Below the pieces are notes generated by a model that saw only the letters and a program-made list of their open reading frames with translations, made no database searches and was not told where the DNA came from. A stretch of DNA of 64,000 bases from Candidatus Binatia bacterium (GTDB lineage: Bacteria; Vulcanimicrobiota; Vulcanimicrobiia; Vulcanimicrobiales; Vulcanimicrobiaceae): positions 697,878 through 761,877 of the forward strand of contig DATKHY010000003.1 of the NCBI GenBank assembly GCA_035544215.1, in the 5' to 3' direction. Made by a program: the position numbers and the translations under genes. Shown piece after piece: positions 19,853 through 62,514 of this stretch (its first letter is position 1; each line of letters begins with the position of its first letter).

Positions 19853-20491
19853 ATGAATTTGGCGTTATTCGGTGCTACCGGGCCAACCGGAATGAACTTA
19901 CTCGAGCGGGCGATAGCAGGCGGCGATACTATTCGGGCGCTCGCGCGGACGCCGGAAAGGCTAAGCCACTTCCGCGATCGCGTGACGGTGATTCACGGGG
20001 ACGTACTAGACGAAAGGACTGTTGCCGAGGCGATCGTTCCCGGTACCGATGCCGTGCTTTCCGCGCTGGGGGTGCCCCCGTCCCAGCGGGACACGAGCTT
20101 TACGCTGCGGCGAGGGATGCATAACATTTTATCGGCGATGCGAGCCTCGGGGACACGGCGCGTCTTAGCCGTTTCAGCATCTGCGTTGTACGTCGATTCT
20201 TTCGACAACCTTCTCTTGCGAATCGCAAAGCCCGCGCTGCAGCGCCTGTTTGCAAAGATGTACGACGACCTGCGTGCGATGGACTCCGAGCTCGAGGGCG
20301 CACAATGTGACTGGACAAGCGTGGTCGCGCCGCAGCTCAACAACAAACCACCCACGGGACAGTACCGAGTGGCGGTTGGCCACAACCTCCCGCGCGGCTA
20401 CTCGATCACGCGTGCCGACCTCGCCCACTCCATGTTCGATTTGATCCTCGACACGAGCGCCTTTCGGCGGCGCGTCTTCGTCGCGAACTAG
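19853..20491 (+). CDS. NAD(P)H-binding atypical SDR (NmrA/BVR-B-like)
   Basis: N-terminal Rossmann motif LALFGATGPTGMNLLERAIAGGDTIRALAR. The 212-aa length is typical of NAD(P)-binding domain proteins. Confidence 0.85.
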   Translation: MNLALFGATGPTGMNLLERAIAGGDTIRALARTPERLSHFRDRVTVIHGDVLDERTVAEAIVPGTDAVLSALGVPPSQRDTSFTLRRGMHNILSAMRASGTRRVLAVSASALYVDSFDNLLLRIAKPALQRLFAKMYDDLRAMDSELEGAQCDWTSVVAPQLNNKPPTGQYRVAVGHNLPRGYSITRADLAHSMFDLILDTSAFRRRVFVAN

Positions 20492-20556
20492 GGCGGGCGC
20501 GGGCTGTGCCGAAGTCCTTCAGCGCTCTTCCGTTGAGCTTCCGGGAGGTGTCGCAG

Positions 20557-21519
20557 ATGAGAATCTTGCTCAGCGCCGCAGCCATGATCTTGCTCGCAGG
20601 ATGCGGAGGCCTTCCACAGGCTCAGGTTGGAACGCAGCCGCCGGGCATCGCGCCGGGGGGCCCGGTAGGCGCAATAGGGAGCACGGACTTGCTCTACGCC
20701 GCGGGGCAGCACTTTGGCTACGTCTTTACCTACCCCGCGGGGAAGTTAGTAGGGTCCTTCCCGCTGCGCATCCACCGTCAGCAAGGCTATTCAAACGGCC
20801 TCTGCTCGGACTCGGGCGGCGACGTTTTTCTAACGGTCTTTTCCGCGAGCTTCGTTAAGATATTCGAATACGCGCACGGCGGCACCAAGCCGATCGCCGA
20901 GTTACGTGACCCACAGCCTACGCCGATCGGTTGCGCTAGCGATCCGACGAGCGGCAACCTTGCGGTAACGAACTCGTTTCCCACCGAGGGCCTAGAGAGC
21001 GTGGCCATCTACAAGGGCACGCAGGGCAAAGCGAAACTCTACTACTCGATCCCAGAAATGCACGTCTTAGCGTTTTGCGCTTACCACAATGCGGGCGATC
21101 TCTTCGTCGATGGCAAGAACAGAACGAACGGCCGGTTCGCGCTTGCCGAGCTTCCAAAAGGCAGCGGCACGTTTCAAAGCATTACCGTCAAGGGACTCGA
21201 TACCCGCAAGCCGGGCAACCTCCAGTGGATAGGCAACTACCTGACTGTCGCCGTTCCCACCGCCCACAGGATCTACACGCTGCAAGTCTCGGGCACGACC
21301 GGGACGATCGTCGGCACGACTGTGCTTCATCGATGGGATACGCGTACGACTGTGCAGTCGTGGATCGACGGCAACACCGTCATCGCTCCACGCGGCCTAA
21401 CGAATGAGACGATCGCATTCTGGAATTACCCTCAAGGCGGCAAGCCGGTCAAAACACTCCGTGGCTTTGCGGCCGGATACATTCACGGCGTGACGGTTAG
21501 CACAGGACAAGGCCGGTAA
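20557..21519 (+). CDS. P1-family beta-propeller-like lipoprotein (divergent copy)
   Basis: ORF track gives 20506..21519; ATG 20557 gives MRILLSAAAMILLAGCGG. P1 motifs: GLCSDSGGDVFL, FEYAHGGTKPI, GCASDPTSGNLAVTN, GDLFVDG, ELPKGSGTFQSI, LQWIGNYLTV, FWNYPQGGKPV. Confidence 0.8.
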   Translation: MRILLSAAAMILLAGCGGLPQAQVGTQPPGIAPGGPVGAIGSTDLLYAAGQHFGYVFTYPAGKLVGSFPLRIHRQQGYSNGLCSDSGGDVFLTVFSASFVKIFEYAHGGTKPIAELRDPQPTPIGCASDPTSGNLAVTNSFPTEGLESVAIYKGTQGKAKLYYSIPEMHVLAFCAYHNAGDLFVDGKNRTNGRFALAELPKGSGTFQSITVKGLDTRKPGNLQWIGNYLTVAVPTAHRIYTLQVSGTTGTIVGTTVLHRWDTRTTVQSWIDGNTVIAPRGLTNETIAFWNYPQGGKPVKTLRGFAAGYIHGVTVSTGQGR

Positions 21520-32325: not shown

Positions 32326-33273
32326 CTACCAACTGATAACGACGAGGCCGTTTGTGGTCGCGTTTTTCCAGCCTTGCCAACTCTGGAAGCGCGTGGCACT
32401 TGGCTCGATGTAGGACGAACCTCCGCCGCCGCCACCACCGCCGTAGCCGTATGTGTAAAAACCCCCAGTGCCGCCGCCGCCCCCACCGCCGCCGTAATAA
32501 CCACCGCCGCCGCCGCCACCAGTGCCACCGACGGGCTTGCAAAACTTTCCCTTCTGACAGCCTTTCCCGCCGCCGCCACCGCGGCCGACCGAGCCGTTAG
32601 CCCCCGGCCGCGGGTAAGTTGAGCTTCCGGCGATACCACCTTGTCCGCCACTCTCTTGCGTGCCACCCCCGCCTCCCACACCCCACTCGCCGGGGCAGCA
32701 TCGCGGATCTCCGGCAGCGCCTATGCTGCCCCCGCCCTTTCCGCCCGCGCCCCAGTAGCTTCCAAATGCTTCGCCACCTTGGCCGCCGCCGCCGCCGGCA
32801 ACGACAATGCGATCCGTCAACCGATCGCCGCCTTCGCGAATATCGGACGCGCCCCCACCACCAAATCCGTCGTTATATCCGTGGCGGTTCATGCCGGCGT
32901 GCGCGCCGCCGTTGAATCCGCCCGCGGCCCCGGACGGCTGCCCACCGACGAAGACTGCCAGCGTCTCGTCGGGCGTAACCGGGATAATCGCAAAGACGCG
33001 ACCGCCGGTGGCGAAGACCGTACTGCTGCGATCGCCATGGCCTCCCGCGGCGCCGCGAACGACGACTTCAATCTTCGTCACGGAAACCGGTACTCTAAAA
33101 TCCTGCTCCTTGCCAGTGTAGTTAAACGTGCGGTTACGCGGATACGTAGCCGGGCTAATCGCACGGCTTTCCGGCATTGCGCCTGGAGCAGCGATAGGTG
33201 GTTGCGACCCGCAGCCTGCGAGCAATGCAGCTGCCGCGCCGATTGTAAGCGCGTTGCGACCCAGTGTCCCCAT
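32326..33273 (-). CDS. Glycine-rich lipoprotein (Gly_rich / ALK-type glycine-rich domain-like)
   Basis: Trimmed to ATG 33273: MGTLGRNALTIGAAAALLAGCGS. Then FNYTGKEQDFRVPVSVTKIEVVVRGAAGG...GGRVFAIIPVTPDETLAVFVGG...GGGGASDIREGGDRLTDRIVVAGGGGG, followed by poly-Gly and the tail SSYIEPSATRFQSWQGWKNATTNGLVVISW. Confidence 0.75.
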   Translation of the reverse strand: MGTLGRNALTIGAAAALLAGCGSQPPIAAPGAMPESRAISPATYPRNRTFNYTGKEQDFRVPVSVTKIEVVVRGAAGGHGDRSSTVFATGGRVFAIIPVTPDETLAVFVGGQPSGAAGGFNGGAHAGMNRHGYNDGFGGGGASDIREGGDRLTDRIVVAGGGGGQGGEAFGSYWGAGGKGGGSIGAAGDPRCCPGEWGVGGGGGTQESGGQGGIAGSSTYPRPGANGSVGRGGGGGKGCQKGKFCKPVGGTGGGGGGGYYGGGGGGGGTGGFYTYGYGGGGGGGGSSYIEPSATRFQSWQGWKNATTNGLVVISW

Positions 33274-33313
33274 AAAGCGATGCCTCCCGAAGCAGAACGG
33301 ACCAGCGGCTAGG

Positions 33314-33340
33314 AACGTTCGACGGCGCCGCATTCGTTCC
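33314..33340 (-). promoter_or_regulatory. ECF-like promoter candidate GGAAC-N18-CGTT in a conserved leader
   Basis: In gene orientation: GGAACGAATGCGGCGCCGTCGAACGTTCC. It lies about 40 nt upstream of ATG 33273, within a leader that is about 80 percent identical (by eye) to the one at 55785-55853. Confidence 0.3.
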
Positions 33341-33403
33341 AGCGTCTAAGGCAGGCGAGCCATCGCTTGAAACCGCTCGCGTTCTTCGTACCTTCGATAG
33401 CGT

Positions 33404-39936: not shown

Positions 39937-39940
39937 CTCG

Positions 39941-40846
39941 TCACCAGCTTATGACGACGAGGCCGTTAGTAGTAGCGTTCTTCCAGCCTTGCCACATCAC
40001 GACTTTCGTTGCACGCGACTCGACGTAGGATGAACCTCCGCCACCGCCGCCACCACCGCCGATCGCGCTCGTGCCTACACCTCCCGCGCCGCCTCCACCG
40101 CCGCCGTAGTATCCGCCGCCGCCGCCGCCGCCGGAACCACCGTAACTACCGGCGCCGCCAGCCCCCCCGACCGCAAGACTCCCGGCCGCGCCGGGGTCGC
40201 CGTTGCCCAGCGAGCCCGAGCCGCTGCCTCCGCCGCTTCCGCCTTCCTGTTGCGTACCGCCGCCGCCGCCGCCACCACCATAATACTGAGAGCCGTCCCC
40301 ACCGACGCCGCCCGTACCGCCACTCATGCCGCCGCCCTTCCCACCGACACCGCCCGGGAAATTTTTTAACCCGCCCCCGACGCCGCCACCGCCGCCCGAT
40401 ATTATGATCCTATCGACCAGTCTTCGGCCTCGCTCGCGGACGTCGCTGGCGCCTCCACCGCCGAAACCCGAAAGTGTACCCTCGTCGCCGCCTATAGCGC
40501 CCCCGTTGAAACCGGCTGTGCGCGCCGCCCCCATGCCACCAACGTAGACATACAGCAACTCTCCCGCCTTCACTGGCACGATTGCATAGACACGACCTCC
40601 GCGCGCTACGTCGGCGGAGCCACCCCCGGCCGCGCCGCGCGCCACGACCGTGATGCTGGTCACTCCCTGCGGAACTTTGAAATTCTGTACCTTGTCGATG
40701 AAATGAAAGGTATGCGATTGCGTGACGGCAGGGTGGTCGTTTCCGAGTAGCGCCGGGACTGTTCCGGCACTCTTGCCGCATCCGGCAGCCAGCGTGGCAA
40801 CGGCAACGCCGAGAGCGCAGCGAGCGAACGAACGAAACTCCATCAT
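39941..40846 (-). CDS. Glycine-rich lipoprotein (Gly_rich-like), paralog of 32326..33273
   Basis: Trimmed to ATG 40846 (AGGAG upstream): MMEFRSFARCALGVAVATLAAGCG. Then FHFIDKVQNFKVPQGVTSITVVARGAAGG...GGASDVRERGRRLVDRIIISGGGGG, followed by poly-Gly and the tail SSYVESRATKVVMWQGWKNATTNGLVVISW. Confidence 0.75.
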   Translation of the reverse strand: MMEFRSFARCALGVAVATLAAGCGKSAGTVPALLGNDHPAVTQSHTFHFIDKVQNFKVPQGVTSITVVARGAAGGGSADVARGGRVYAIVPVKAGELLYVYVGGMGAARTAGFNGGAIGGDEGTLSGFGGGGASDVRERGRRLVDRIIISGGGGGVGGGLKNFPGGVGGKGGGMSGGTGGVGGDGSQYYGGGGGGGGTQQEGGSGGGSGSGSLGNGDPGAAGSLAVGGAGGAGSYGGSGGGGGGGYYGGGGGGAGGVGTSAIGGGGGGGGGSSYVESRATKVVMWQGWKNATTNGLVVISW

Positions 40847-40955
40847 GCCTGACTCCTGACCGGAGAACGACGGGCCAAGATGACGTTCGGCGCCGGCGCC
40901 GCATCCCATCCCGTCGGGCCGCGCATTGCGTCGCTGCTGGACTAAGCGCTACGCA

Positions 40956-42063: not shown

Positions 42064-43311
42064 CTATGGCGTGAATCGGAAGACCGTGCCGCAACATCTT
42101 TTGAGGTATTTCGTATTGCCTCCGCGAGAGGCCGTGCCGTACAGCGAGCCGTGCAGGTCCGTCAGGGCCGTCATCGGACTGTTCCCATCGCTGCCGCCTG
42201 CAAAACGATGCAACACACTCTCCGCGCCGCTCGTCGTTACGCTGTAAATCGTGCCGCAGCCGAGGTTAGTTGTCGGAAAACAGTCCGTACCGCCACCGCT
42301 GTAGGTTGTGCCGTACAGTGTGCCGTTGAGGTCGAGCAAGCCTCCCACCGGGTCTGCTCCGTCGGAGCCGCCGACAAAGCGGTACACGACTTGTTCCGCA
42401 CCGCTCGTGGTGATGCTGTAAACGGTTCCTAATCCGGAACCGCCGCTACCAGTCAATCCGTAGAGCGTTCCACTAACTGAGATCAACTCACCCTCGGGGT
42501 ACGCCCCGTCAGAGCCTCCGCCGAAGGAATACAGCACTTTGTGCTTCCCCGACATGCTTAGGCTGTAAAACGTTCCACAGCCCGCGGTGCCATTGCCACA
42601 TCCAGTTCCGGCGCCGCCCACAGTGGTCGTGCCGTACAGCATGCCGTTGATGAAGACCAACGCCTTCGGCGAGCTACCGTCGGGGCCGCTCTTGAAGCGG
42701 TACAGCACCTTCTCCTCACCGGAAGTGGTTAGGCTGTAGACGACTCCGCAGTTGCATTTCCCCCCTCCTCCTCCCGCGGTGCCGAAGAGCGTTCCGTTCA
42801 CGTTGATCAAGCGCCCTTGCGGGTGCTGTCCGTCGGAGAGGCCCTTGAAACTGTACAGGAGCGCCTCGACGCCGGCCGTCGTGATGCCGTAGACGGTTCC
42901 TCTCCGCGACGCGCCGCCTCTGGGAGTCGTTCCGTAGAGCGTGCCCTTTACGTCGGTTAGGCCAGTATCCGGTTGCGCGCCATCCCCTGCGCTGAAGGAA
43001 AACACCAGGCTGACGCGGCCCAGCGGGCTGATGCTGTACACGGTCCCGCATCCATGTGAGCATTGCCTGGTGCCCCCTTCCGACGCGGTGCCGTAGAGCG
43101 TGCCCTTGACATCGAGTAAGCGGCCCAATGGTTCTCCGCCATTGGCGTGGTCATCGAACCGGTAAAGCACCTCGTAAGACGATGTAGCGAGGTGGATGCT
43201 CTGCGTCAGCCCGCCCGGCGTAGCGCCGGTCGGCGGCTGCGCCGCTGCGCAGCCCGCAAGCAATGCCGCAGCGGCGCCGATGCTAAGCGCGTGGTAGGCC
43301 AAAGTATTCAT
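42064..43311 (-). CDS. GloVer (Gloeo_Verruco) tandem-repeat lipoprotein
   Basis: Trimmed to ATG 43311 (GGAGG upstream): MNTLAYHALSIGAAAALLAGC. There are about 8 repeats of G(T)LYGTT..GG....G(T)VY(S)....G.E.VLY.F.GG.DG..P.G.L....GTLYG. Confidence 0.8.
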   Translation of the reverse strand: MNTLAYHALSIGAAAALLAGCAAAQPPTGATPGGLTQSIHLATSSYEVLYRFDDHANGGEPLGRLLDVKGTLYGTASEGGTRQCSHGCGTVYSISPLGRVSLVFSFSAGDGAQPDTGLTDVKGTLYGTTPRGGASRRGTVYGITTAGVEALLYSFKGLSDGQHPQGRLINVNGTLFGTAGGGGGKCNCGVVYSLTTSGEEKVLYRFKSGPDGSSPKALVFINGMLYGTTTVGGAGTGCGNGTAGCGTFYSLSMSGKHKVLYSFGGGSDGAYPEGELISVSGTLYGLTGSGGSGLGTVYSITTSGAEQVVYRFVGGSDGADPVGGLLDLNGTLYGTTYSGGGTDCFPTTNLGCGTIYSVTTSGAESVLHRFAGGSDGNSPMTALTDLHGSLYGTASRGGNTKYLKRCCGTVFRFTP

Positions 43312-43454
43312 GTGCGAAGCCTCCGAGAGAGAGCTATTGCATCGTAGCATCCGGCGTTCACGGGGACAAGGCGAAGCAGACATTCGGCGGCCGCGCTGTC
43401 AGTTCTCCCTCGGCTCAGCTTCTTTCAAGGTGCACCGCCAGCGCATCGCGCTTT

Positions 43455-44566: not shown

Positions 44567-44724
44567 CGTCCTTCGACTCGCTGCGCTCGCTCAGGACTGC
44601 CAGGCACCCGCGTCCTTCGACTACGCTCGCTGCGCTCGCTTCGCTCAGGATGACATCGTCACTTGCGTCCTTCGACGGAGCCTGTCCTGAGCGAGCGAAG
44701 CCAGTCGAAGGGCTCAGGATGACA
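44567..44724 (+). repeat. REP-like interspersed repeat, cluster of three units (one containing an inverted copy)
   Basis: Units begin CGTCCTTCGAC at 44567, 44611 and 44666 and end ...GCTCAGGA(C/T)(T)GACA. The third contains the inverted segment TGTCCTGAGCGAGCGAAGCCAGTCGAAGG. The last unit supplies the final codons and stop of the sigma-factor ORF. Confidence 0.7.
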
Positions 44725-45634
44725 AAATCGGGCTGAACCTCGCATCTTTTGCGATGTAGGGTACGTAGCGGAAGTCGCGGATCTCGGAGATTTGTTCGTT
44801 TTCCGATTTGAGGAGAACGAAGTAGGCCGGAGCGTCGCTGGTTGGCGGGCGGAACATCGCGATCGCGGCAACGCCATCGACGTAGCCCGCTTGCGCGCGA
44901 ATGTCTTCGGTCCGCAGGACCTCGGCGTAGCGATCGAAGTAGCCTGCGTCGGCCACCTTGCGCTGCACGAGCGAAACCTGGTCGAGTCGCGCCTCCGCGG
45001 CCAGCAGCGCGCGAAGCGCTTTCCAGTCGTGGTGGTTGAAGAGGTCGACGTAGCGCCGCAGCGTCGCCTGCTCGTGCGCCGACGCGTGCCGCACCGGTTG
45101 TGCGAGTGCGGCGTGCAGCGTTCGAGCGATGTTCGCGCGCCCCCTCGAGAGCGCCGCCTTCACCGCACCGACGCTCGTTTCCATCGTCGTCGCGGCCTCC
45201 TCGAGCGATTGCCCGAGGACGTCTTTTAAGATGAGGGCGCTGCGCTGCACGGGCGGCAGCTCGACGAAGACCGTCAGCGCCGCTTCCACGAGCTCCGGAT
45301 CGACGCCCGCCTCCTCGGCCTCGGCGCGGTCCGGAACGTCGGAGACGAGCTCCACGTTCTTGCGTTCGTAGCGTTTGAGAAAGTCCATAGCGGTATTGTG
45401 TGCGATCCGGAAGAGCCAGGGCCGCAGGTTGGGCGGCTCCCGCATCTGGCCCAGTGCGTAATAGGCTTTTGCCAGCGTGTCTTGGACGACGTCTTCACCG
45501 TCGAAAACCGAGCCCGTCATGCGGGCGGAGTACCGATGGAGCTCGGGGCGAATCTCTTCCACGAGCTCCATGAACCGGTCGCGCGCCTCCGCCATCGCAG
45601 GCAGCAAGGCGCGCGTTTCGTCTTGCGTGGTCAC
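44714..45634 (-). CDS. ECF-type sigma-70 family sigma factor with ~110-aa C-terminal extension (SigJ/ECF41-like)
   Basis: Region 2: ELHRYSARMTGSVFDGEDVVQDTLAKAY...RPWLFRIAHNTAMDFLKR. Region 4: LPPVQRSALILKDVLGQSLEEAATTMETSVGAVKAALSRGR. A long C-terminal NTF2/SnoaL-like tail follows. No anti-sigma gene is seen. GTG start. Confidence 0.9.
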   Translation of the reverse strand: MTTQDETRALLPAMAEARDRFMELVEEIRPELHRYSARMTGSVFDGEDVVQDTLAKAYYALGQMREPPNLRPWLFRIAHNTAMDFLKRYERKNVELVSDVPDRAEAEEAGVDPELVEAALTVFVELPPVQRSALILKDVLGQSLEEAATTMETSVGAVKAALSRGRANIARTLHAALAQPVRHASAHEQATLRRYVDLFNHHDWKALRALLAAEARLDQVSLVQRKVADAGYFDRYAEVLRTEDIRAQAGYVDGVAAIAMFRPPTSDAPAYFVLLKSENEQISEIRDFRYVPYIAKDARFSPILSS

Positions 45635-46511: not shown

Positions 46512-46645
46512 TGTATTAACTCCTGTTAAGCGGATCGGTTGGCTATCATGAAGACGATTGGGGAGGCGGAAAAGATACGCCGATGGCCAAACTTAGGGAG
46601 CGGCCTTAAGGCTGCTTCTCTTCCTCCACTCCTAGGAGGTTCCCA

Positions 46646-47626
46646 ATGCGAATTTTCTCGCTCCTTGGCTTATCTTTCGCGGCGATACTCTTTGCCGCGT
46701 GCTCTTCGAGCGCTCCGTTGATCGGAGCAAATCCGACATCACCGGGGCAAATGCAAAGCGCGCTGCGCGGCATCGGCCCGAACGGTGTGCCGCCGCACGT
46801 CTCAACGATGCGCGGCTGGATGGTCTCGCCGGACCGGCACCACCACCATAGATTGAAGCGGCTCTACGTTTCCGACGAGGGCGATGGCGTCGTCGACGTC
46901 TTTGCGCTGCCGTCCCTCTCGCTCGTCGGACAGATCACGGCCGGGCTCAGTCAGCCCGAAGGTATCGCGACGGACAGGCTCGGCAACTTGTACGTTTCTA
47001 ACCTAAGCGGCAATACCGTCACCGTCTACCATCAAGGCAAGACGAGCCCATACCTGACGCTCACGGGATCCAGCGGCCCCGACGACGTGGCCGTGGCCAA
47101 GAACGGCTACGTGCTTGCCGGCGATACCGGCGGCGGCGTTGACGTGTACCCGCCCGGTGCGACCTCGCCGAGCACGCGGCTGATCAACTCGGCGATCTCC
47201 AGCGTCTACGGAGTCGGCGTAGATTCTCACAACAACGTATACGCGGCGGGTTTCGGCGGCGCCGGAGCAGTCGTCGTCGAGTACGCCAACATGGCGGGGT
47301 CCGGAACGAATCTGGGCTTGACGGGCCTGGGTGGTCCGGCCGGTGTGCTGGTCGATAACCACGGCAATCTCGTCGTTTCCGATATCGGGTTAAGCCTCAT
47401 CGACATCTATCCGCCCGGAAAGACATCGCCCTCCTCGACTATATCGGTGACATCCCCCGACCGCACGTCGATCAACAACCTGGAGAATACCCTGTACGTG
47501 CCCCAAGGAGGGAACGACTCAGTCGATATCCTCAGTTACCCCGCCGGTTCGTCTCTCGGTTCGCTCGGGCTTACGAACTTCGTCTCCGGAGCGGCGACGG
47601 CTCCGGCTCCGGCGCCGGTGCCCTAA
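46646..47626 (+). CDS. NHL-repeat beta-propeller lipoprotein
   Basis: Lipobox ILFAACSS. Blades: PEGIATDRLGNLYVSNLSGNTVTVYHQG, PDDVAVAKNGYVLAGD, VYGVGVDSHNNVYAAG, PAGVLVDNHGNLVVSD...IDIYPPG. Confidence 0.8.
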   Translation: MRIFSLLGLSFAAILFAACSSSAPLIGANPTSPGQMQSALRGIGPNGVPPHVSTMRGWMVSPDRHHHHRLKRLYVSDEGDGVVDVFALPSLSLVGQITAGLSQPEGIATDRLGNLYVSNLSGNTVTVYHQGKTSPYLTLTGSSGPDDVAVAKNGYVLAGDTGGGVDVYPPGATSPSTRLINSAISSVYGVGVDSHNNVYAAGFGGAGAVVVEYANMAGSGTNLGLTGLGGPAGVLVDNHGNLVVSDIGLSLIDIYPPGKTSPSSTISVTSPDRTSINNLENTLYVPQGGNDSVDILSYPAGSSLGSLGLTNFVSGAATAPAPAPVP

Positions 47627-49916: not shown

Positions 49917-51851
49917 CTAGTCGTCGTCGTCTCTACGCCGAATCATCACGGCGTGACGCGTCCCCTCGAGCTGCTGGTGCAAGTAATAGCCGGCGGTCTC
50001 GTACATCGGCGGAAGCGACGCCGGAGACTGTATCGGCGTTAAGCCCAGCGAAGCACAGCTCATGTTCGGCGGAGAACTCGGCGAGTGAATCTCCGCGAGC
50101 GACGGCGGGTTCTCGGCGCCACCGCGGAGCTTGCGCGCGTCGAGCGCATCGAACAGGTCCGAGGTGGCGGTATCGCCGTCGGCCGGCGGCAGGCCCACCG
50201 AAACGCCCTTGGCCTCATCCGGCAGCGACGAGAACTTCGGCACGCCGAAGATCGCCTCTATCATCTTGGAGACCGAGCCATGATCGGCATAGTCGTGCAC
50301 CACGACGCCCGTCTTGGAGAACGGCGAGATCACTAACGCCGGCAAACGAACGCCGTCGCCGCACGCGTAGCCCTCTTCCGGTCCGGTCCTATCCTCCGGG
50401 CACGTCTGGCCAAAGTCCGGCGGCGCCAAGTGGTCGTAGAAGCCTCCGCTGTCGTCCCAGGTCACGACGATGACCGAGTCCTTCCAGTATTTGCTCTTCG
50501 CAATGGCATTGATGACCGAGGCGAGATACGCCTCAGCTACCTGATGATCGGAGCTGCCGCTGCCGGGATGGTCATCATCGCCGACATAATACTTCTTACT
50601 CGATGGATTGTTCGTAAAGATCGAGTCGGCCGGGACGAAGCCGTAGGTATTCTCGTTTCCGCCCTTGACCCAGAAGACTCCCGAACCCGGCAGTTTTCCG
50701 CCTTTGATGTCTGAAATCAGACCGTTGCTCTTTGCGTTGTCGCGCAGCGTCTTCTTGCTGGCGAAGGCCGACTGCGGATTGTTTATGTAGTCGAAGTAGA
50801 GCGGCGCGGTGTGATGCGCGGAGAAGCCTGCGTTGGCCGTGTATAGTCCTTCTTCGTACCACGCCCAGTCAAACGACTGACGGCTGCTTTTGCCTTCCCG
50901 GCGAATGTCGCGGCCGATGTAGCCTACGACTTTCGACTTCTGAGCCTTGCGGTCCATTTCCGGATTGAGCAACACCGGCATCGTTGCATAACTTTGGAAC
51001 GTGTTGCTGTCTCCCGTATACGAGGTCACGGGGAACTTCAGCTCGGCCGGCGGCGGGTTGTCGTCGTTAGAGATCGGCACGCCGTCGGTGTAGCCTCCCC
51101 CGCTCGGGAGCGGCACCGAGAGTGTCCCTTCGCCTGCAGCCGCCTCGGTTTGTCCGATTTGACCCGCGAACAACTGAATGTTGCTCGGCGTCGAGTCGCC
51201 GGTGTTCGCTTGGAAGTAGTGATCGAAGAGCGCGAAGTTTTTCGCATAGTACCAGAGATAGGGGACCGTGTCGCAATCGTACACGCCCTCGATAGCGATC
51301 GACTCGTTGTGCTGCTCGATCTGCTGAGGGCTCGGCGTTGGCCCCAGCGGCGGCGCTCCCCCCTCGGCATCCACGAGGAAATCGTCCATCTTGCCCCGGT
51401 CGATCGATGCTTCTTGATCGAAACGACCGTTGTTGCCACCGTTGATGTCGGGCGCATCGGAAACGTAGTTGGGGCTGCTTTGATTCGTCGAGATCAGGAA
51501 CGGACGCTGACAGCTGAAAGTTTGTGGATCGTACTGGCAGTCCGTTTGTTGGGCCAGATACGTGCCCAGGTTCTCGACGTACTGGCCGTTCACTCCGGGA
51601 AACAGGCCATAGACCTGATCGAAAGTGTGATTCTCTTGAACTAGCACGAAGACGTGCTTGATTCGCGAGCGCGCTAAGCCGGCTATTTTCTCACGGTACG
51701 CGGCATCCGCCAGCTGCGCAGCCGCGGATCCCGGTCCTCCGAGTTGCGCACCCTGCGGCGTCAGAGCGGAGCCTGGGGTGCCCACTCCTCCGCAAGCTGC
51801 GAGCGCGCAGGACGCTGTAAAAATTACGATGTGCGAAGCTAATCGACGCAT
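49917..51851 (-). CDS. Phosphoesterase family lipoprotein (phospholipase C / AcpA-type), long form
   Basis: Lipobox CALAACGG. Motifs: IKHVFVLVQENHTFDQVYGLFPG, VTWDDSGGFYDH, GDGVRLPALVISPF. 644 aa. Confidence 0.9.
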   Translation of the reverse strand: MRRLASHIVIFTASCALAACGGVGTPGSALTPQGAQLGGPGSAAAQLADAAYREKIAGLARSRIKHVFVLVQENHTFDQVYGLFPGVNGQYVENLGTYLAQQTDCQYDPQTFSCQRPFLISTNQSSPNYVSDAPDINGGNNGRFDQEASIDRGKMDDFLVDAEGGAPPLGPTPSPQQIEQHNESIAIEGVYDCDTVPYLWYYAKNFALFDHYFQANTGDSTPSNIQLFAGQIGQTEAAAGEGTLSVPLPSGGGYTDGVPISNDDNPPPAELKFPVTSYTGDSNTFQSYATMPVLLNPEMDRKAQKSKVVGYIGRDIRREGKSSRQSFDWAWYEEGLYTANAGFSAHHTAPLYFDYINNPQSAFASKKTLRDNAKSNGLISDIKGGKLPGSGVFWVKGGNENTYGFVPADSIFTNNPSSKKYYVGDDDHPGSGSSDHQVAEAYLASVINAIAKSKYWKDSVIVVTWDDSGGFYDHLAPPDFGQTCPEDRTGPEEGYACGDGVRLPALVISPFSKTGVVVHDYADHGSVSKMIEAIFGVPKFSSLPDEAKGVSVGLPPADGDTATSDLFDALDARKLRGGAENPPSLAEIHSPSSPPNMSCASLGLTPIQSPASLPPMYETAGYYLHQQLEGTRHAVMIRRRDDDD

Positions 51852-54479: not shown

Positions 54480-54606
54480 CCTCTGACATCCAACGCTGCT
54501 TCCTGCAGCATCCACGATCGGCGGCTGCGATCCGCCGCACCCTGCCAGCAAGGCCGCAGCACCGCCGATCCAAAGCACGCCGCGCGGCTATTGCAATTAT
54601 CTTCAT
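54480..54606 (-). pseudogene. Truncated, frameshifted 5-prime remnant of a lipoprotein gene
   Basis: ATG 54606 gives MKIIAIAARRAL. In the next frame follows IGGAAALLAGCGGSQPPIVDAAG, nearly the same signal peptide as genes 32326..33273 and 54705..55784. The frame then runs antisense into the ICMT gene end. Confidence 0.35.
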
Positions 54607-54704: not shown

Positions 54705-55784
54705 TCATTCTCGGGGGAAGACCAGCTCGCCGATCTTGTTTCTGAACCCCTCGGCAAACCACATGTTCCCATCCGGGCCCTTAACGATACCAACTACCTG
54801 GAACTTTGGCTGGCTCCCGTTAATCGCGCCCGGCAGTTTGTAATCGTTCACGACCTGCCCTTGGAGATTCATGGAGATTATGTGACCTACGAACGGCTGG
54901 GTTATCCACCAATTCCCGTCCGGGCCTAGTGCTATACCGTCGCCCTGATCTGCTATCGAATACTTCGTAATTTGTCCATCGGGTGTAATCTTTCCGACCC
55001 ACGCGTTGGTCTTCGGACCATCAGCCGCGGTAAACCATACATTGCCGTCGGGGCCTTCCGTAACGTTCCACACACCGTCCGCCGCAACAATAGGAAAGTT
55101 GGTAATCGCCCCGTCGGCCGTCACGCGGGTTATTTGCGGGCAGTTTCCGCTGTCGCCGATCCAGAATGTTTCACCTTCGCCCACTGCCAATGGGCCCGGG
55201 TAGCAGTAAAAACCAGGCAAACGTATCGTTTTTACCAGCTTGGGTTTAATGGTGAGCTCGTCGAGGTTACCCGAGTATACTCCCGTTCCCGGGGACGTGG
55301 CTACCATCCATAGATGCCGCCGTGCGGACACGATGCCCGCAGTCCATCCACATCCCGATTGGCCACACACCCTGTACTGGGATATCAGCCCATTTTTGAC
55401 TAGACCAATGGTTTGAGTGTAGTAGTCGGTAAACCAAACGTTTCCATCGGGACCGTGCGTAAAATGATAGGCCGAATCGTACCCAGAACCATTGCGCTTC
55501 TCGGGTAGGGCGTGCGCCGTGACGGCACCGTTAGGGAGCATTCGTCCAAGATACGGATAAAAGGAGTTAAACCAAAGAGCTCCCGCCGAGTCGAACGCGA
55601 GCTGGTAGAGATCCTCGAGCTTTTTGTTCTTGACAACGTACTCCTTAAGAACGGGGCCGCTCCTCCGCAGAGCGCTTTGGTTCGCCCGGGCCGCCCCGCC
55701 GATCGGCAGCTGCAATCCGCCGCAGCCCGCAAGCAATGCGCCTGCGGCTCCGATGCTAAGCGCGAAGCGAGCTAAGGTTCCCAT
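54705..55784 (-). CDS. Vgb (virginiamycin B lyase)-type beta-propeller lipoprotein
   Basis: Signal is MGTLARFALSIGAAGALLAGCGG. Repeated GPDGN(V/W/M)WFT blades: THGPDGNVWFTDYY, TEGPDGNVWFTAADG, ALGPDGNWWITQP, VKGPDGNMWFAEGF. Confidence 0.8.
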   Translation of the reverse strand: MGTLARFALSIGAAGALLAGCGGLQLPIGGAARANQSALRRSGPVLKEYVVKNKKLEDLYQLAFDSAGALWFNSFYPYLGRMLPNGAVTAHALPEKRNGSGYDSAYHFTHGPDGNVWFTDYYTQTIGLVKNGLISQYRVCGQSGCGWTAGIVSARRHLWMVATSPGTGVYSGNLDELTIKPKLVKTIRLPGFYCYPGPLAVGEGETFWIGDSGNCPQITRVTADGAITNFPIVAADGVWNVTEGPDGNVWFTAADGPKTNAWVGKITPDGQITKYSIADQGDGIALGPDGNWWITQPFVGHIISMNLQGQVVNDYKLPGAINGSQPKFQVVGIVKGPDGNMWFAEGFRNKIGELVFPRE

Positions 55785-55824
55785 GTGCCATGCCTCCCCG
55801 AAGCTGAACGGACGAGCGACTGAG

Positions 55825-55852
55825 AACGTTCGGCGGCCGCGCCGTCAGTTCC
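55825..55852 (-). promoter_or_regulatory. ECF-like promoter candidate GGAAC-N19-CGTT in a conserved leader
   Basis: In gene orientation: GGAACTGACGGCGCGGCCGCCGAACGTTC. It lies about 40 nt upstream of ATG 55784 and is followed by the conserved TCCGTTCAGCTTCGGGGAGG leader/RBS. Confidence 0.35.
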
Positions 55853-56060
55853 ATCGCGGGAGCCAGGCCGCCAAGAGTGAAGCCGTCTCGCGGCTCGCTC
55901 CGAGGTCCCCGCGCTGATCGGCGCCCCTCGTCCCGTCTGGCTTCGGTCGAAGTTTGCCGGTTCTCAGGATCATGCTTATCCGCGTACGGCGGGGCTTCCT
56001 GAAAGCAAGAAACAGGGCAGTGACACCTCCCGGTGAGATGGAAGCTAACGGACACCTAAG

Positions 56061-60150: not shown

Positions 60151-61048
60151 GATCAAACGGGGTCTTTTGACCCTCGCGATTACGCTCCTCGGTGCGAGCC
60201 CTTCGGTCGCACCGCGAGACGCCGCGCCCGAGGCGATGACGCCGCAGAAGATTTTCGACGCGGCGTTCCGGCGCTTGCAGTCGTACCCCGTGCCGCCGTA
60301 CGCCGTGTGGACCGCGACCTGGAACATCCGTGAGCGGCCGATGGGCTATTACACCGGCGAGAAGGCGAGCGTCGAGACGAGCCGCTACGCCGTGCGCCTC
60401 TCCGACGGGATCGAGAACGTCAGCGACCCGATTCCGAGCGGCAAGCTGCCGCCCGCGACGATCGAGGACGAGTTCCTGGGCCCGTTCGCGTGGACGATGC
60501 GCTCGTCGGTGCGCGTCGCGCCGCCCGGCGGCGTGATGATGCAGCCCGACATCGAGGGCCTCAAGACGATCGCCACGGTCGTCGCGATCGCGCAGTCGCC
60601 GTACACCTTCGGATTTACGCGCGCCGGCGCGCTGCCGATCGAAACCGTCGACGGACATCGCGTCTATCATTTGGAGCTGCGGCCCCGCAGCGATTCGCAG
60701 CTGCACAATCTGCGCGATCTCTGGATCGACGCCGACACGTACGATTTGTGGAGGGCGCATTTCGTCGGGACGTATCGTCCCTTTCCGAACGCACCGCTGA
60801 GCCCCACCGACGTCATGGTAAACTTTCGCAACGTGCTCGGGCGCTGGGTCGTTACGCGCGCCGCCTGGAACTGGGACGACGCACCCCTCTCCTTCATGTT
60901 CGACGTGACCAACGACGAGATCGGCTTGCCCGCTTCGCTCCCGGACTGGCTCTTCGATGCAAAACAGTACCAGCGTCACCAAGATGCCGGCGAGCCGGAC
61001 TACATCGGCGAGCTTCTCAAGCGCATGCGGGCGGGGTCGAACGGGTAA
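60149..61048 (+). CDS. Hypothetical secreted protein (LolA-like fold suspected)
   Basis: ORF track gives 59963..61048; ATG 60149 gives the signal MIKRGLLTLAITLLGASPSVA. GHRVYHLELRPRSDSQLHNLRDLWIDADTYDLWR resembles lipoprotein-sorting-like proteins (weak). Confidence 0.6.
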   Translation: MIKRGLLTLAITLLGASPSVAPRDAAPEAMTPQKIFDAAFRRLQSYPVPPYAVWTATWNIRERPMGYYTGEKASVETSRYAVRLSDGIENVSDPIPSGKLPPATIEDEFLGPFAWTMRSSVRVAPPGGVMMQPDIEGLKTIATVVAIAQSPYTFGFTRAGALPIETVDGHRVYHLELRPRSDSQLHNLRDLWIDADTYDLWRAHFVGTYRPFPNAPLSPTDVMVNFRNVLGRWVVTRAAWNWDDAPLSFMFDVTNDEIGLPASLPDWLFDAKQYQRHQDAGEPDYIGELLKRMRAGSNG

Positions 61049-61076
61049 GGCTGCAGCCTGCGCCGAAGGCCGGAGC

Positions 61077-62498
61077 ATGGAGCGTTCCCGTTTTACTGCC
61101 CTCGCTGTGGCGTTTGTCCTCGCGTCCTGCGGCGGCGGTTATGCCGGCGGGTCCGGGGGCGCGACGCCTGCGTTCGTCGTCGACACGCATCGTCAAGGCA
61201 GCTCCGGTCTAATCAAGCACGTCGTCATCATGATTCAAGAGAATCGCAGCTTCAACAATTTCTTCGCGACGTTCCCGGGCGCCGACGGAACCACGTACGG
61301 CATGATGGGCAAGAAGCGGATCCACTTGACGGAAACCAATCTCGTCTGGCCGTGCGACCTCGGGCATTCGCGCAACGCGTATCTCGAGGACGACGACAAC
61401 GGTAAGATGGACGGATTCTATCTCGAGGGCAACGGGAACAAAGCGCCGTGCATCGGGCAGGCCGGCCGGCGCCCGTACCAATACGTGAAACCGGCGCAGA
61501 TCCAGCCGTACTGGGACATGGCCGGGCAGTACGTGCTAGCCGAGCACATGTTCCAGACGCAAGGCAGCGGCAGCTTTACCGCGCATCAAGACTTGATTCG
61601 CGGCGGCACGACGTTCGACGCGGCGCTCGACGAGGCGCTGGTGGATTTTCCGACGGTCGCGCCGTGGGGCTGCAACGCGCCGCCAAAGGCCAAGACGTCG
61701 TACCTGCTGTGGACTGGGAGCTACATCCACGGCGAGCACAACAAAGGGCCGTTCCCGTGCACCAACAAGTTTCCCGGATCGGGAAGCTACTATCACACGC
61801 TGGCCGACGAGCTCGACGCGAAGAAGATCTCGTGGAGGTACTACACGCCGAAGCTCAGCTCCACCGGCAGACTGTGGAACGCGTTCAATATGATCGCATC
61901 CGTACGGTACGGTCCGGAGTGGGGCACGAACGTCGTGTGGCCGGAGACGACGATCTTCACGGACATCACGAACGGCACGCTGCCGGCAGTGTCGTGGTTG
62001 ATTCCGGACGGCAAGAACTCCGATCACCCGGGCTCCGCCGCGACGGACACGGGGCCGTCGTGGGTGGCGAGCGTCGTGAACGCGATCGGTCAGAGTTCGC
62101 TGTGGGACTCCACCGCGATCGTCGTCGTGTGGGACGATTGGGGAGGATTTTACGATAACATGCCGCCGCCGCCGGTCGGGGGGTCGCAGTTCGATCACTG
62201 GGGCGGCTTGGGCTTCCGCGTTCCCTGTATCATCGTTTCGCCGTACGCGCGCGAGGCGACGAAGAGCAAGCCCGGCTACATCTCTCCCACGGACTACGAG
62301 TTCGGCAGCATCCTGAAGTTCGTCGAGGACAACTGGGATCTGCCGCGACTCGGGACAACCGACGGCCGCGCCAACAGCATCGTCGACTCGTTCGATTTCA
62401 CGCAGCCGCCGCGCACGTTCACGAAGATTCCCTCATCGTACCCGCTCGAGTATTTCGAGCGCGAGGCGCCTTCGAACATTCCCCTCGACTCTGAATAG
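61077..62498 (+). CDS. Phosphoesterase family lipoprotein (PLC/AcpA-type), tandem copy 1
   Basis: ORF track gives 60957..62498; ATG 61077 gives MERSRFTALAVAFVLASCGGG. Motifs: IKHVVIMIQENRSFNNFFATFPG, SWLIPDGKNSDHP, WDDWGGFYD, GFRVPCIIVSPY. Confidence 0.9.
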   Translation: MERSRFTALAVAFVLASCGGGYAGGSGGATPAFVVDTHRQGSSGLIKHVVIMIQENRSFNNFFATFPGADGTTYGMMGKKRIHLTETNLVWPCDLGHSRNAYLEDDDNGKMDGFYLEGNGNKAPCIGQAGRRPYQYVKPAQIQPYWDMAGQYVLAEHMFQTQGSGSFTAHQDLIRGGTTFDAALDEALVDFPTVAPWGCNAPPKAKTSYLLWTGSYIHGEHNKGPFPCTNKFPGSGSYYHTLADELDAKKISWRYYTPKLSSTGRLWNAFNMIASVRYGPEWGTNVVWPETTIFTDITNGTLPAVSWLIPDGKNSDHPGSAATDTGPSWVASVVNAIGQSSLWDSTAIVVVWDDWGGFYDNMPPPPVGGSQFDHWGGLGFRVPCIIVSPYAREATKSKPGYISPTDYEFGSILKFVEDNWDLPRLGTTDGRANSIVDSFDFTQPPRTFTKIPSSYPLEYFEREAPSNIPLDSE

Positions 62499-62514
62499 CG
62501 GAGAACTTTTTCGC

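What the first reader, a model, noticed from the sequence alone, without database searches (positions are those of the whole stretch)
55785..55853. Conserved 5-prime leader plus signal-peptide module shared by unrelated lipoprotein genes; contains a GGAAC...CGTT ECF-like motif
Seen:
- In gene orientation, upstream of the Vgb-like gene: GGAACTGACGGCGCGGCCGCCGAACGTTCTCAGTCGCTCGTCCGTTCAGCTTCGGGGAGGCATGGCACATG.
- Upstream of the Gly-rich gene (33274-33340): GGAACGAATGCGGCGCCGTCGAACGTTCCTAGCCGCTGGTCCGTTCTGCTTCGGGAGGCATCGCTTTATG. About 40 of 49 positions match from GAACGTTC to the ATG.
- The P1 gene at 20557 carries CCGAAGTCCTTCAGCGCTCTTCCGTTGAGCTTCCGGGAGG (20509-20548).
- The second Gly-rich gene carries ATGCGGCGCCG...CGAACGTC...TCGTTCTCCGG (40866-40904).
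- The GloVer gene carries a 25-nt block with 3 mismatches (43382-43406).
- The encoded signal peptides are also alike: M(G/N)TL....AL(S/T)IGAA.ALLAGC. The same signal is found on the truncated remnant at 54480-54606.

Established: many ECF sigma factors recognise GGAAC at -35 and CGT(T/C) at -10. Here the spacing to GTT is 19-20 nt, slightly longer than the 17-18 typical of SigH/SigR-type promoters.

Inference: either a shared promoter/leader, possibly a regulon of the ECF sigma factor at 44714..45634, or a duplicated promoter-plus-export module recombined onto different mature domains. TCCG...CGGGGA could pair and partly occlude the RBS.
Basis: partly seen in the sequence, partly recalled or inferred. 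Interest (0 to 1): 0.65.

Follow-up and report, generated by a model that had tools for sequence, protein, structure and literature searches.

The report
Shared promoter and export cassette
Unrelated lipoprotein genes of this uncultured soil bacterium (phylum Eremiobacterota) share a short interchangeable front end (a likely stress-type promoter, a ribosome-binding site and a lipoprotein export signal) that occurs across the phylum and often rides on Cas1-encoding mobile elements.

Summary
A 135-nt block (about 70 nt upstream plus the signal-peptide codons) is shared by the Vgb-lyase-like gene (start 55784, minus strand) and a Gly-rich gene (start 33273, minus strand). Weaker copies sit at 20557, 40846, 43311 and 54606. 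The core sequence occurs only in Eremiobacterota genomes. Profile searches found about 38 leader copies, nearly all followed by the same lipoprotein signal peptide. These precede at least seven unrelated mature domains, and more than 2,000 protein clusters carry the signal.

The best-conserved bipartite motif is cGAAC-N17-CGTT, ending 21-24 nt before the start codon. It survives in otherwise diverged leader variants. Homology between copies begins at this -35 box and ends just past the lipobox. No RNA structure, Rfam family or sigma-70 promoter is supported, and nothing links the motif to the ECF sigma gene at 44714-45634.

Two unexpected findings emerged. About a third of the leader copies lie directly after the cas1 gene of casposon-like elements. 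The roughly 45 nt after the lipobox cysteine codon are almost invariant at synonymous sites. Transcription start sites and the responsible sigma factor remain untested.

The parts
55785..55857 (-). Copy A leader upstream of the Vgb-lyase-like lipoprotein gene. Elements: upstream block GGAACTGAC 55852-55844; candidate -35 GAAC 55831-55828; 17-nt spacer; candidate -10 CGTT 55810-55807; predicted start of transcription about 55802-55798 (inferred); Shine-Dalgarno GGGGAGG 55799-55793.
   Evidence: Sequence; nhmmer 61.8 bits; motif coordinates; no sigma-70-type promoter.
55722..55784 (-). Copy A signal peptide MGTLARFALSIGAAGALLAGC. Start codon 55784-55782; lipobox Cys codon 55724-55722.
   Evidence: Translation; signal-peptide profile 56.9 bits.
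55689..55724 (-). Copy A post-lipobox linker CGGLQLPIGGAA. This is a diverged copy of the nucleotide-invariant element (23-mer at 55718-55696 with 3 mismatches). Homology with other copies ends here.
33274..33344 (-). Copy B leader upstream of the Gly-rich (ALK_LTK_GRD-like) lipoprotein gene. Elements: GGAAC 33340-33336; candidate -35 GAAC 33320-33317; candidate -10 CGTT 33299-33296; Shine-Dalgarno GGGAGG 33288-33283.
   Evidence: 55.6 bits.
33169..33273 (-). Copy B signal peptide MGTLGRNALTIGAAAALLAGC (Cys codon 33213-33211) plus linker GSQPPIAAPGAMPE. The linker peptide is kept but with different synonymous codons.
   Evidence: (64.7 bits).
20485..20604 (+). Copy P1, a partial cassette. Elements: GAAG 20511-20514; 16-nt spacer; CGTT 20531-20534; Shine-Dalgarno GGGAGG 20543-20548; ATG 20557. 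The signal peptide is different (MRILLSAAAMILLAGC).
   Evidence: (45.9 bits).
43224..43405 (-). Copy C, GloVer-repeat lipoprotein gene. The upstream block GAGAACTGACAGCGCGGCCGCCGAATGT (43405-43380) is kept. The proximal part is degenerate (GAAT-N19-CGTG) with about 30 extra nt. Signal peptide MNTLAYHALSIGAAAALLAGC starts at 43311.
   Evidence: 58.2 bits; TIGR03803.
40846..40904 (-). Copy D, second Gly-rich lipoprotein gene. Diverged leader GCCGAAC-N15-CGTT, Shine-Dalgarno AGGAG, different signal peptide.
   Evidence: (weak, E = 0.14).
54480..54606 (-). Orphan remnant: frameshifted signal peptide plus post-lipobox element (54533-54511), with no leader and no mature domain.
   Evidence: (35.9 bits).

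Best explanation
The block is a compact expression-and-export cassette of about 125-130 nt, running from about -52 to +75 relative to the start codon.

Components:
- An ECF-type (group 4 sigma) promoter with -35 (G)CCGAAC and -10 CGTT(C)A separated by 17 nt.
- A predicted start of transcription 6-8 nt after CGTT, giving a very short (about 15-18 nt) unstructured 5' UTR.
- A strong Shine-Dalgarno sequence (GGGAGG) 7-9 nt before ATG.
- A Sec/signal-peptidase-II lipoprotein signal peptide (M..LAR.AL.IGAAALLAGC) followed by the linker GGSQPPIGAPG.

The cassette is specific to Eremiobacterota. It heads a very large family of extracytoplasmic lipoproteins, mostly beta-propeller-like, but also Gly-rich, GloVer and Vgb-lyase-like. 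It has been joined repeatedly to unrelated mature domains by recombination at or just after the lipobox.

Casposon-like elements (Cas1 plus PolB) carry the same cassette as their first cargo gene. They are a plausible vehicle for its spread.

Shown: the homology, its boundaries, the conserved bipartite motif and its geometry, the signal peptide, the diversity of mature domains and the cas1 adjacency.

Inferred: that the motif is a promoter, that an ECF sigma reads it, the position of the transcription start, and the recombination mechanism.
For: - Lineage-wide conservation: all 14 exact core matches are in Eremiobacterota genomes. There are 38 leader copies by nhmmer. 34 have a called downstream ORF, 31 of them with a lipobox at a fixed distance.
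- In 366 kb of held DNA, 35 of 40 'GAAC-N16-18-CGTT + SD + start' sites precede this signal peptide.
- Footprint: leader variants that are otherwise unalignable keep only GCCGAA(A)C, a 17-nt spacer and CGTT(C/G)A, 21-24 nt from the start.
- The spacer is 17 nt in 25/26 and 10/13 copies.
- GAAC-N17-CGTT occurs in 9/46 non-type-1 upstreams against 7/398 controls, p = 4e-6. Overall it is 37/96 against 0.17 in shuffles, and 33 of the hits have CGTT ending 20-27 nt from the start.
- Boundaries: across 335 pairwise alignments the 5' edge peaks at -60..-50, which is the -35 box. The 3' edge peaks at +70..+80, just past the Cys codon.
- The motif matches experimentally defined SigH/SigE promoters, GGAAC-N17-18-cGTT (PMC10012870).
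- No sigma-70-type promoter is present upstream.
- The leader is less structured than shuffles.
- Cassette exchange is documented.
- The signal-peptide family has 2,089 50%-identity clusters at E <= 1e-3.
Against: - No transcription start data exist, and the sigma factor is unidentified.
- No sigma gene with this motif upstream was found.
- The -35 reads CGAAC, not GGAAC.
- Most type-1 copies were retrieved with patterns that fixed parts of the motif, so their conservation is partly conditioned.
- Only about 40-55% of genes with this signal peptide have the motif.
- The motif is almost never seen apart from the signal peptide. Co-inheritance rather than regulation could therefore explain part of the association.
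- The spacer segment CGCTCGTC in type-1 copies is more conserved than a promoter needs.
Confidence: 0.6

Rival explanations
1. The functional promoter is the distal GGAAC(-35)...CGTT/GTT(-10) of GAACGTT. This would give a 5' leader of about 45 nt (GTTC..TCCGTTCAGCTTCGGGGAGG) that regulates translation. Alternatively, both overlapping promoters work, with the central CGAACGTT serving as -10 of one and -35 of the other.
For: - GGAAC is present in A and B.
- B has GGAAC-N19-GTT, within the published N18-19 range, and A has N20 (PMC10012870).
- A block GG(G/A)A(A)CTGA(G/C) about 20 nt upstream of the GAAC is shared by type-1 and type-2 leaders.
- A minority leader type has GGAAC-N17-CGTT with CGTT 34-40 nt from the start: 8 of 96, of which 4 lack the proximal motif.
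Against: - GGAAC is GGGAT, GGGAC or GGATT in most copies, and its distance to CGT varies from 17 to 20 nt.
- The G/T of that 'CGT' is lost in many variants.
- Pairwise homology usually starts downstream of GGAAC, at the GCCGAAC box.
- The supposed leader shows no stable or covarying structure.
Confidence: 0.15
2. The upstream conservation has no regulatory meaning. The block is simply the 5' end of a young, rapidly duplicating and recombining gene family, spread by casposons or gene conversion, and has not had time to diverge.
For: - The motif is almost exclusively coupled to one signal-peptide family.
- About 11 of 32 type-1 copies lie directly after cas1 (pseudo)genes.
- There are many truncated orphan copies.
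- Window copy A is closer to a casposon-borne copy from another genome (85.6%) than to its own paralogue B (77%).
Against: - Synonymous sites of the adjacent signal-peptide codons are near saturation (0.44 observed against 0.31 expected), so the copies are not young.
- Diverged leader types keep only the two boxes at fixed spacing and position.
- The homology edge coincides with the -35 box.
Confidence: 0.12
3. The conserved DNA is an operator or recombination site rather than a promoter. GAACG-N15-CGTTC is a 5-bp inverted repeat that could bind a dimeric regulator or recombinase.
For: - The inverted repeat GAACG...CGTTC is present in type-1 copies, so the motif matches on both strands.
- Mycoplasma vpma/vsp genes have their recombination sites in the conserved 5' UTR (PMC2268961).
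Against: - The symmetry is not kept in variants (CGTTGA, CGTTTA). Only GAAC and CGTT are conserved.
- No recombinase gene is consistently adjacent.
- Copies lie mostly in direct orientation, each with its own full gene.
Confidence: 0.08
4. A cis-regulatory RNA leader, such as a thermosensor, riboswitch or sRNA target, that sequesters the Shine-Dalgarno sequence.
For: RNAalifold proposes GCC.GCUCG pairing with CGGG.AGGC across the Shine-Dalgarno sequence, with 93% of cells paired.
Against: - Consensus energy is only -5 kcal/mol.
- Covariation does not exceed shuffles: 69-159 of 500 shuffles reach the observed values.
- Single-sequence z-scores are +0.9 to +1.5.
- There is no Rfam hit at gathering or E <= 1 thresholds.
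- The pairing partner is absent in type-2 and type-3 leaders.
- Under the promoter model that segment is not transcribed.
Confidence: 0.05

Closest known systems
ECF (group 4) sigma-dependent promoters of the SigE/SigH/SigR type (GGAAC-N17-18-cGTT)
   Same: It has an AAC-containing -35 box, a CGTT -10 box and a 17-nt spacer. The distance to the start codon is short, and the downstream genes encode envelope or secreted proteins (PMC10012870).
   Different: The -35 is CGAAC preceded by GC, not GGAAC. No cognate or autoregulated sigma/anti-sigma operon was identified. The promoter is physically welded to one signal-peptide family instead of being scattered over a mixed regulon. No start-site data exist.
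Mycoplasma variable lipoprotein families (vpma, vsp, vsa, vlp) with a conserved 5' UTR and signal peptide
   Same: The 5' untranslated region and the signal-peptide-coding region are conserved across a multigene lipoprotein family whose mature parts differ. In vsa, a promoter + RBS + 5' coding block is joined to different 3' gene bodies (PMC2268961).
   Different: Here most copies have their own complete cassette, not one expression site plus silent genes. No adjacent Xer/HvsR-type recombinase was seen, nor an inverted-repeat architecture or homopolymer tract in the promoter. The organism is a free-living soil bacterium. The mature domains are non-homologous folds, not repeat variants.
Borrelia paralogous lipoprotein families with shared upstream homology regions (own knowledge, not checked here)
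   Same: A conserved promoter/leader plus a lipoprotein signal sits in front of divergent mature proteins carried on mobile replicons.
   Different: The lineage, sequence and carriers differ (plasmids and prophages against chromosomal arrays and casposon-like elements).
Casposons (Cas1 casposase + family B polymerase + terminal inverted repeats)
   Same: This applies to related loci only. L040 has a 524-aa Cas1 (TIGR00287, 90.6 bits) and a 987-aa protein with the ExoI/II/III and polymerase A/B/C motifs. It also has terminal inverted repeats of at least 141 nt at 100% identity.
   Different: No target-site duplication could be checked. A conserved lipoprotein expression cassette as first cargo right after cas1 has, to my knowledge, not been described, and no paper links casposons with Eremiobacterota. 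The window itself has no Cas1, PolB or inverted-repeat remnant.
Integron platform (Pc promoter next to the integrase, with cassettes exchanged at attI/attC)
   Same: A constant gene (cas1) is followed by a constant expression signal and then a variable gene body. An imperfectly palindromic, nucleotide-conserved element sits at the junction.
   Different: The junction lies inside the coding region. There is no tyrosine integrase or attC structure, and no evidence of excision or integration.

Membership tests
ECF-type sigma-dependent promoter | -35 element containing (G)GAAC | tested here: met
   GAAC is at a fixed position in A, B and 25 type-1 copies. It reads GA(A)AC/T in 13 diverged variants and is preceded by GC(C/G). 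P1 has GAAG.
ECF-type sigma-dependent promoter | -10 element CGT(T/C), 16-18 nt downstream of the -35 | tested here: met
   CGTT follows a 17-nt spacer in 25/26 type-1 copies and 10/13 variants. This matches GGAAC-N17-18-cGTT (PMC10012870).
ECF-type sigma-dependent promoter | Enrichment upstream of genes beyond chance | tested here: met
   37/96 against 0.17 in shuffles. 9/46 against 7/398 control genes. This covers held loci only, not a whole genome.
ECF-type sigma-dependent promoter | Transcription starts 5-8 nt after the -10 and depends on an ECF sigma | not testable with these tools
   No transcriptome or in vitro data are available.
ECF-type sigma-dependent promoter | A cognate sigma gene, often autoregulated by the same motif, is identifiable | tested here: not met
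   No motif lies upstream of the ECF gene 44714-45634 or its operon. None of the 40 motif sites in 366 kb precedes a sigma gene. No sigma gene is found in casposon L040.
Bacterial lipoprotein signal peptide (signal peptidase II substrate) | Positively charged n-region, hydrophobic h-region, lipobox [LVI][ASTVI][GAS]C within about 15-25 residues | tested here: met
   Examples are MGTLARFALSIGAAGALLAGC and MGTLGRNALTIGAAAALLAGC. Cys is invariant in alignments of 19-53 sequences.
Structured cis-regulatory RNA leader (any Rfam family or a new one) | Match to a curated model, or a conserved structure with covariation and above-chance stability | tested here: not met
   Rfam gives 0 hits. z-scores are +0.9 to +1.5. 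RNAalifold gives -5 kcal/mol. Covariation is within the shuffle range.
Mycoplasma-type phase-variable lipoprotein expression-site system | Conserved 5' UTR + signal peptide across a lipoprotein multigene family | tested here: met
Mycoplasma-type phase-variable lipoprotein expression-site system | A single promoter or expression site with silent promoter-less genes, inverted recombination sites and an adjacent site-specific recombinase | tested here: not met
   Most copies have their own start codon and signal peptide, and many have their own promoter motif. They lie mostly in direct orientation. No recombinase appears in the Pfam annotations of the arrays L042-L045. This was not searched exhaustively.
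Casposon (related loci) | Cas1-family casposase, family B DNA polymerase, terminal inverted repeats | tested here: met
   For L040: Cas1 above the TIGR00287 cut-off; PolB motifs FDCET, NFPFD, YNRRD, DFMSQY, SYG and EDTDS; inverted repeats 1-141 / 12112-12252 at 100%.
Casposon (related loci) | Target-site duplication flanking the inverted repeats | not testable with these tools
   The left flank of L040 lies outside the fetched locus.
Casposon (the window itself) | Any Cas1, PolB or inverted-repeat remnant next to the cassettes | tested here: not met
   tblastn and blastn of the L040 element against the window find only the cassette itself.

The most novel reading that the evidence does not exclude
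The cassette is one half of a domain-shuffling system. The second half would be the nucleotide-invariant, imperfectly palindromic element of about 45 nt right after the lipobox codon (TGCGGCGGATCGCAGCCGCCGATCGGCGCGCCGGGCGCGATGCCGCA).

In this reading the element is a recombination junction. At it, a constant 'promoter + RBS + signal peptide' is joined to interchangeable mature-domain genes. That would work like Mycoplasma vsa/vpma expression-site switching or an integron platform, but in a free-living soil phylum.

Casposon-like elements (cas1 - cassette - variable cargo) would act as carriers, and the Cas1 casposase might be the enzyme acting on the palindrome. This would also account for the hundreds of orphan 'signal-peptide-only' mini-ORFs as failed joints.
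Probability: 0.2. Interest if true: 0.85.

Novelty: new variant of a known kind. Interest (0 to 1): 0.58.

Why it matters
Eremiobacterota are abundant in soils and peat but almost uncultured. Nothing is known about their promoters or their cell-envelope biology.

- A defined, compact promoter + RBS + lipoprotein-signal cassette gives a concrete candidate regulon and a ready-made expression and export tag for the phylum.
- The comparative data show that new surface lipoproteins are made by swapping whole front ends at the lipobox.
- Cas1-encoding self-replicating transposons carry the same cassette in front of changing cargo.
- A stretch of coding DNA is held invariant at synonymous sites exactly at the swap point.

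If the last two points reflect a mechanism, this would be a new route of gene-cassette exchange and a new role for casposons. If they do not, the finding is still a clean example of a lineage-specific ECF-type lipoprotein regulon.

Tried and rejected
- Rfam, at gathering threshold on the window and at E <= 1 on the locus: nothing.
- RBS-occluding or other RNA structure: not above chance.
- Sigma-70-type promoter upstream of A or B: none.
- Sigma-54 and FliA-type readings, checked by eye: poor matches, dropped.
- Generic ECF pattern enrichment in the window: 14 against 9.3 expected, and 7 against 2.9 expected. The excess is essentially the cassette copies themselves.
- ECF41-type motif GTCACA-N15-17-CGTC, tested as a target of the SnoaL-tailed sigma: 0 matches. 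No cassette motif lies upstream of that sigma's operon.
- A sigma gene inside casposon L040: none by Pfam.
- Cas1, PolB or inverted-repeat remnants in the window: none.
- The cassette as a casposon end or target. In L040 the three signal-peptide modules lie inside the inverted repeats, and the DNA at the one visible (right) end of the element is unrelated to them.
- Inverted repeats in L039 and L041: none relevant, only IS copies.
- PolB checked against the PDB and PHROGs: no hit. It was confirmed by motifs instead.
- A long-range stem GCAUUGC/GCGAUGC around the lipobox: dropped. The 5' arm alternates GCATTGC / GCAATGC (Leu/Met) without compensation, and z is about 0.
- The word-indexed protein search returned only short ORFs. 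The exhaustive search showed a mix of full-length and short proteins.
Full report
**1. What is there.** The window is a soil-metagenome contig with 60.5% G+C (JGI 3300031715 Ga0307476_10000004, 768 kb).

- On the minus strand, the region upstream of the Vgb-lyase-like lipoprotein gene (54705-55784) matches that of a Gly-rich lipoprotein gene (32326-33273). The match is 135 nt at 77% identity, E = 5e-16 (55853-55720 against 33341-33209).
- It covers about 70 nt of upstream DNA and the first roughly 21 codons. The flanks on both sides are unrelated.
They are the P1 gene (proximal half only, 20511-20548), the GloVer gene (upstream 26 nt plus signal peptide), a second Gly-rich gene (weak), and a frameshifted remnant at 54606-54480.

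**2. It is a lineage-wide element.**

- An exact-match scan of one genome per species with the core CGCTNKTCCGTTNNGCTTC(N)GGGAGG gave 14 hits. All are in Eremiobacterota/Vulcanimicrobiota MAGs such as Candidatus Cybelea.
- A second pattern in metagenomes added 22 loci, a few of which are chance matches.
- An nhmmer profile finds 38 copies in the held DNA. 34 have a called downstream ORF, and 31 of those carry a lipobox at a fixed distance. The signal peptide is of one type, M..LAR.AL.IGAAALLAGC, then GGSQPPIGAPGAMPQ.
- The mature parts fall into at least seven unrelated groups. The largest is an uncharacterised family of about 325 aa. The others are NHL/SGL propellers, GloVer repeats, Gly-rich ALK_LTK_GRD-like, Vgb-lyase-like and further types.
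- An exhaustive profile search of 1.84 billion cluster representatives finds 2,089 clusters with this signal peptide at E <= 1e-3 and 725 at E <= 1e-10. They are a mixture of full-length proteins and many short ones.

**3. Where the module begins and ends.**

- Across 335 pairwise alignments of type-1 copies, the 5' edge of homology peaks at -60 to -50 from the start codon. The 3' edge peaks at +70 to +80.
- The 5' edge is the GCCGAAC box. The 3' edge is four or five codons past the lipobox cysteine.
- The window gene 40956-41942 is 66% identical in protein to a gene in L024 that carries the type-1 leader. The window copy has an unrelated upstream region and a different signal-peptide N-part, and DNA homology starts at the lipobox.
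- The front end is therefore exchangeable as a unit.

**4. Promoter reading.** Type-1 copies were retrieved with patterns that fix part of the sequence, so I also collected genes by the signal peptide alone.

- Six-frame HMM searches gave 80 and then 100 hits in the held loci.
- Their upstream regions fall into several mutually unalignable leader types. Many keep the same skeleton: GCCGAA(A)C, 17 variable nt, CGTT(C/G)A, about 6 nt, a Shine-Dalgarno sequence, about 8 nt, then ATG.
- The spacer is 17 nt in 25 of 26 type-1 copies and in 10 of 13 variants. CGTT ends 21-24 nt before the start codon.
- GAAC-N17-CGTT is among the three top dyads (third by p value) in an unbiased dyad count. It occurs in 9/46 upstreams against 7/398 control genes, p = 4e-6. 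The two dyads ranked above it are shifted versions of the same motif.
- In 96 non-redundant upstream regions the strict motif occurs 37 times against 0.17 in shuffles. 33 of these are at the proximal position.
- This matches the experimentally defined SigH/SigE consensus GGAAC-N17-18-cGTT (PMC10012870).
- No sigma-70-type promoter is present.
- I therefore read GAAC 55831-55828 / CGTT 55810-55807 as -35/-10 for copy A, and GAAC 33320-33317 / CGTT 33299-33296 for copy B. The predicted 5' UTR is about 15-18 nt. This step is inference, because no start sites are known.

**5.

- The upstream GGAAC belongs to a moderately conserved block GG(G/A)A(A)CTGA(G/C). It reads GGGAT or GGGAC in most copies.
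- Its distance to the next CGT varies from 17 to 20 nt, and that CGT is lost in the variants.
- In B its spacing (N19 to GTT) is within the published range. In A it is one longer.
- A minority leader type uses GGAAC-N17-CGTT at that position.
- It remains a weaker alternative, or a second overlapping promoter in which CGAACGTT serves twice.

**6. What it is not.**

- There is no Rfam match.
- The leader folds less well than shuffled sequence, with z from +0.9 to +1.5.
- The only consensus helix, an anti-Shine-Dalgarno pairing, has -5 kcal/mol and no covariation beyond shuffles.
- The ECF sigma at 44714-45634 is a SigJ/TIGR02960-like protein with a SnoaL_2 tail. Neither the cassette motif nor an ECF41-type motif lies upstream of it. 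Nothing links it to the cassette.

**7. Unexpected context: casposon-like elements.**

- In many loci the type-1 leader starts about 10 nt after the stop codon of a gene or pseudogene ending ...SLAACSRIRAGARVPHPRHWEALRKLAES. This is the C-terminal helix-turn-helix of a Cas1-family protein of about 520 aa.
- L040 is a complete element. It has inverted repeats 1-141 / 12112-12252 at 100% identity and a 987-aa family B polymerase with all exonuclease and polymerase motifs. Its 524-aa Cas1 is followed by the cassette and two more signal-peptide modules, all inside the repeats.
- About 11 of 32 non-redundant type-1 copies follow cas1 directly, with four different mature families behind them.
- Of seven orphan signal-peptide ORFs chosen only for lying on long contigs, four have a full or nearly full-length cas1 (L044's is split into two ORFs) within 5 kb. 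Two more (L042, L043) have only a short C-terminal Cas1 remnant elsewhere in the locus, and L045 has none.
- The window has none. Its copy A is nevertheless closer to the L040 copy (85.6%) than to its own paralogue B.
- I found no paper that links casposons with this phylum.

**8. Unexpected: a nucleotide-invariant stretch at the junction.**

- In 35 non-redundant genes with CxxSQPPIGxxG, the 12 codons from the cysteine on have a mean codon identity of 0.855. The expectation from local codon usage is 0.38, and the maximum of 2,000 simulations is 0.453.
- The 13 signal-peptide codons just before them, in the same sequences, are near neutral: 0.44 against 0.31.
- The exact 23-mer GGATCGCAGCCGCCGATCGGCGC occurs 22 times in 14 held loci from many genomes, behind quite different leaders.
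- The element is an imperfect palindrome, but it is not unusually stable.
- Changes of mature family, and the truncations that give the orphan mini-ORFs, fall within about 15 nt of its 3' end.
- In the window, A has a diverged copy, the remnant has the 5' part, and B keeps the peptide with different codons.
- I cannot explain this. The candidates are a recombination junction, an sRNA or translation signal, or a very short gene-conversion tract.

**9. Verdict.**

It is a promoter-plus-export module recombined onto different domains. It carries an ECF-type motif, but with different boxes. There is no link to the neighbouring sigma and no RNA switch.
- By kind, it combines an ECF-type promoter with a conserved lipoprotein 5' module of the sort known from Mycoplasma families (PMC2268961). 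The new setting is that most genes have their own copy, the mature folds are unrelated, there is an association with casposons, and a synonymous-site-invariant junction element is present.

Noticed in passing
L040:1-12252 (NCBI OY969421.1); also L016, L013, L039, L041, L044: Casposon-like elements in Eremiobacterota MAGs. They have a Cas1 of about 520 aa with a C-terminal HTH, a family B polymerase of about 990-1020 aa, and terminal inverted repeats of at least 141 nt at 100% identity. Many other loci hold decayed remnants. No paper links casposons with this phylum.
   Followed up: partly
Held loci generally, e.g. L044:8019-8041, L042:10073-10095; window 55718-55696 and 54533-54511: The roughly 45 nt after the lipobox Cys codon are almost invariant at synonymous sites. 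Codon identity is 0.855 against 0.38 expected, while the neighbouring signal-peptide codons are near neutral. The cause is unexplained.
   Followed up: partly
Proteins P0001-P0120; window 54480-54606; L014:1068-1166, L035:7021-7134: There are hundreds of orphan ORFs of 33-78 aa that consist only of the signal peptide and linker and are then truncated or frameshifted. This points to very high turnover of these genes.
   Followed up: partly
L042:1-20108: A second leader type, GCTCAGCCGGGCTAAGCCGAAACG..GCTGGGCGCCGTGGCGTTCACGGAGCGAGGAGC, is repeated in front of at least 9 lipoprotein genes or fragments within 20 kb. It has the same GAAAC-N17-CGTT geometry.
   Followed up: partly
L025:1175-1338: Two cassettes lie head-to-head about 44 nt apart, driving divergent lipoprotein genes.
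   Followed up: no
L040:13467-16130, L041:11600-14248, L043:3971-6619: In three genomes the casposon or lipoprotein-array region lies next to the 3' end of secA, in otherwise conserved synteny (secA, polysaccharide deacetylase, LytR, radical SAM). This may be a preferred insertion site.
   Followed up: no
window 55852-55844, 33340-33332, 43403-43395: A conserved upstream block GG(G/A)A(A)CTGA(G/C) lies about 20 nt upstream of the candidate -35. It is shared by type-1 and type-2 leaders, and its function is unknown (activator site or second -35).
   Followed up: partly
window 35996-47626: This is a lipoprotein island. It holds three tandem paralogues of about 320-335 aa (35996-38944), a Gly-rich gene, an NHL-type gene, a GloVer gene and an SBBP-like lipoprotein gene. 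Most lack the cassette.
   Followed up: no
window 49917-51851 and 60957-63912: There are several paralogous PF04185 phosphoesterase genes (phospholipase C / acid phosphatase family) with their own, different lipoprotein signals.
   Followed up: no
window 45333-45359: A palindromic GGAACGTCGGAGACGAGCTCCACGTTC lies inside the ECF sigma coding region. It matches the generic ECF pattern on both strands but is probably chance.
   Followed up: no
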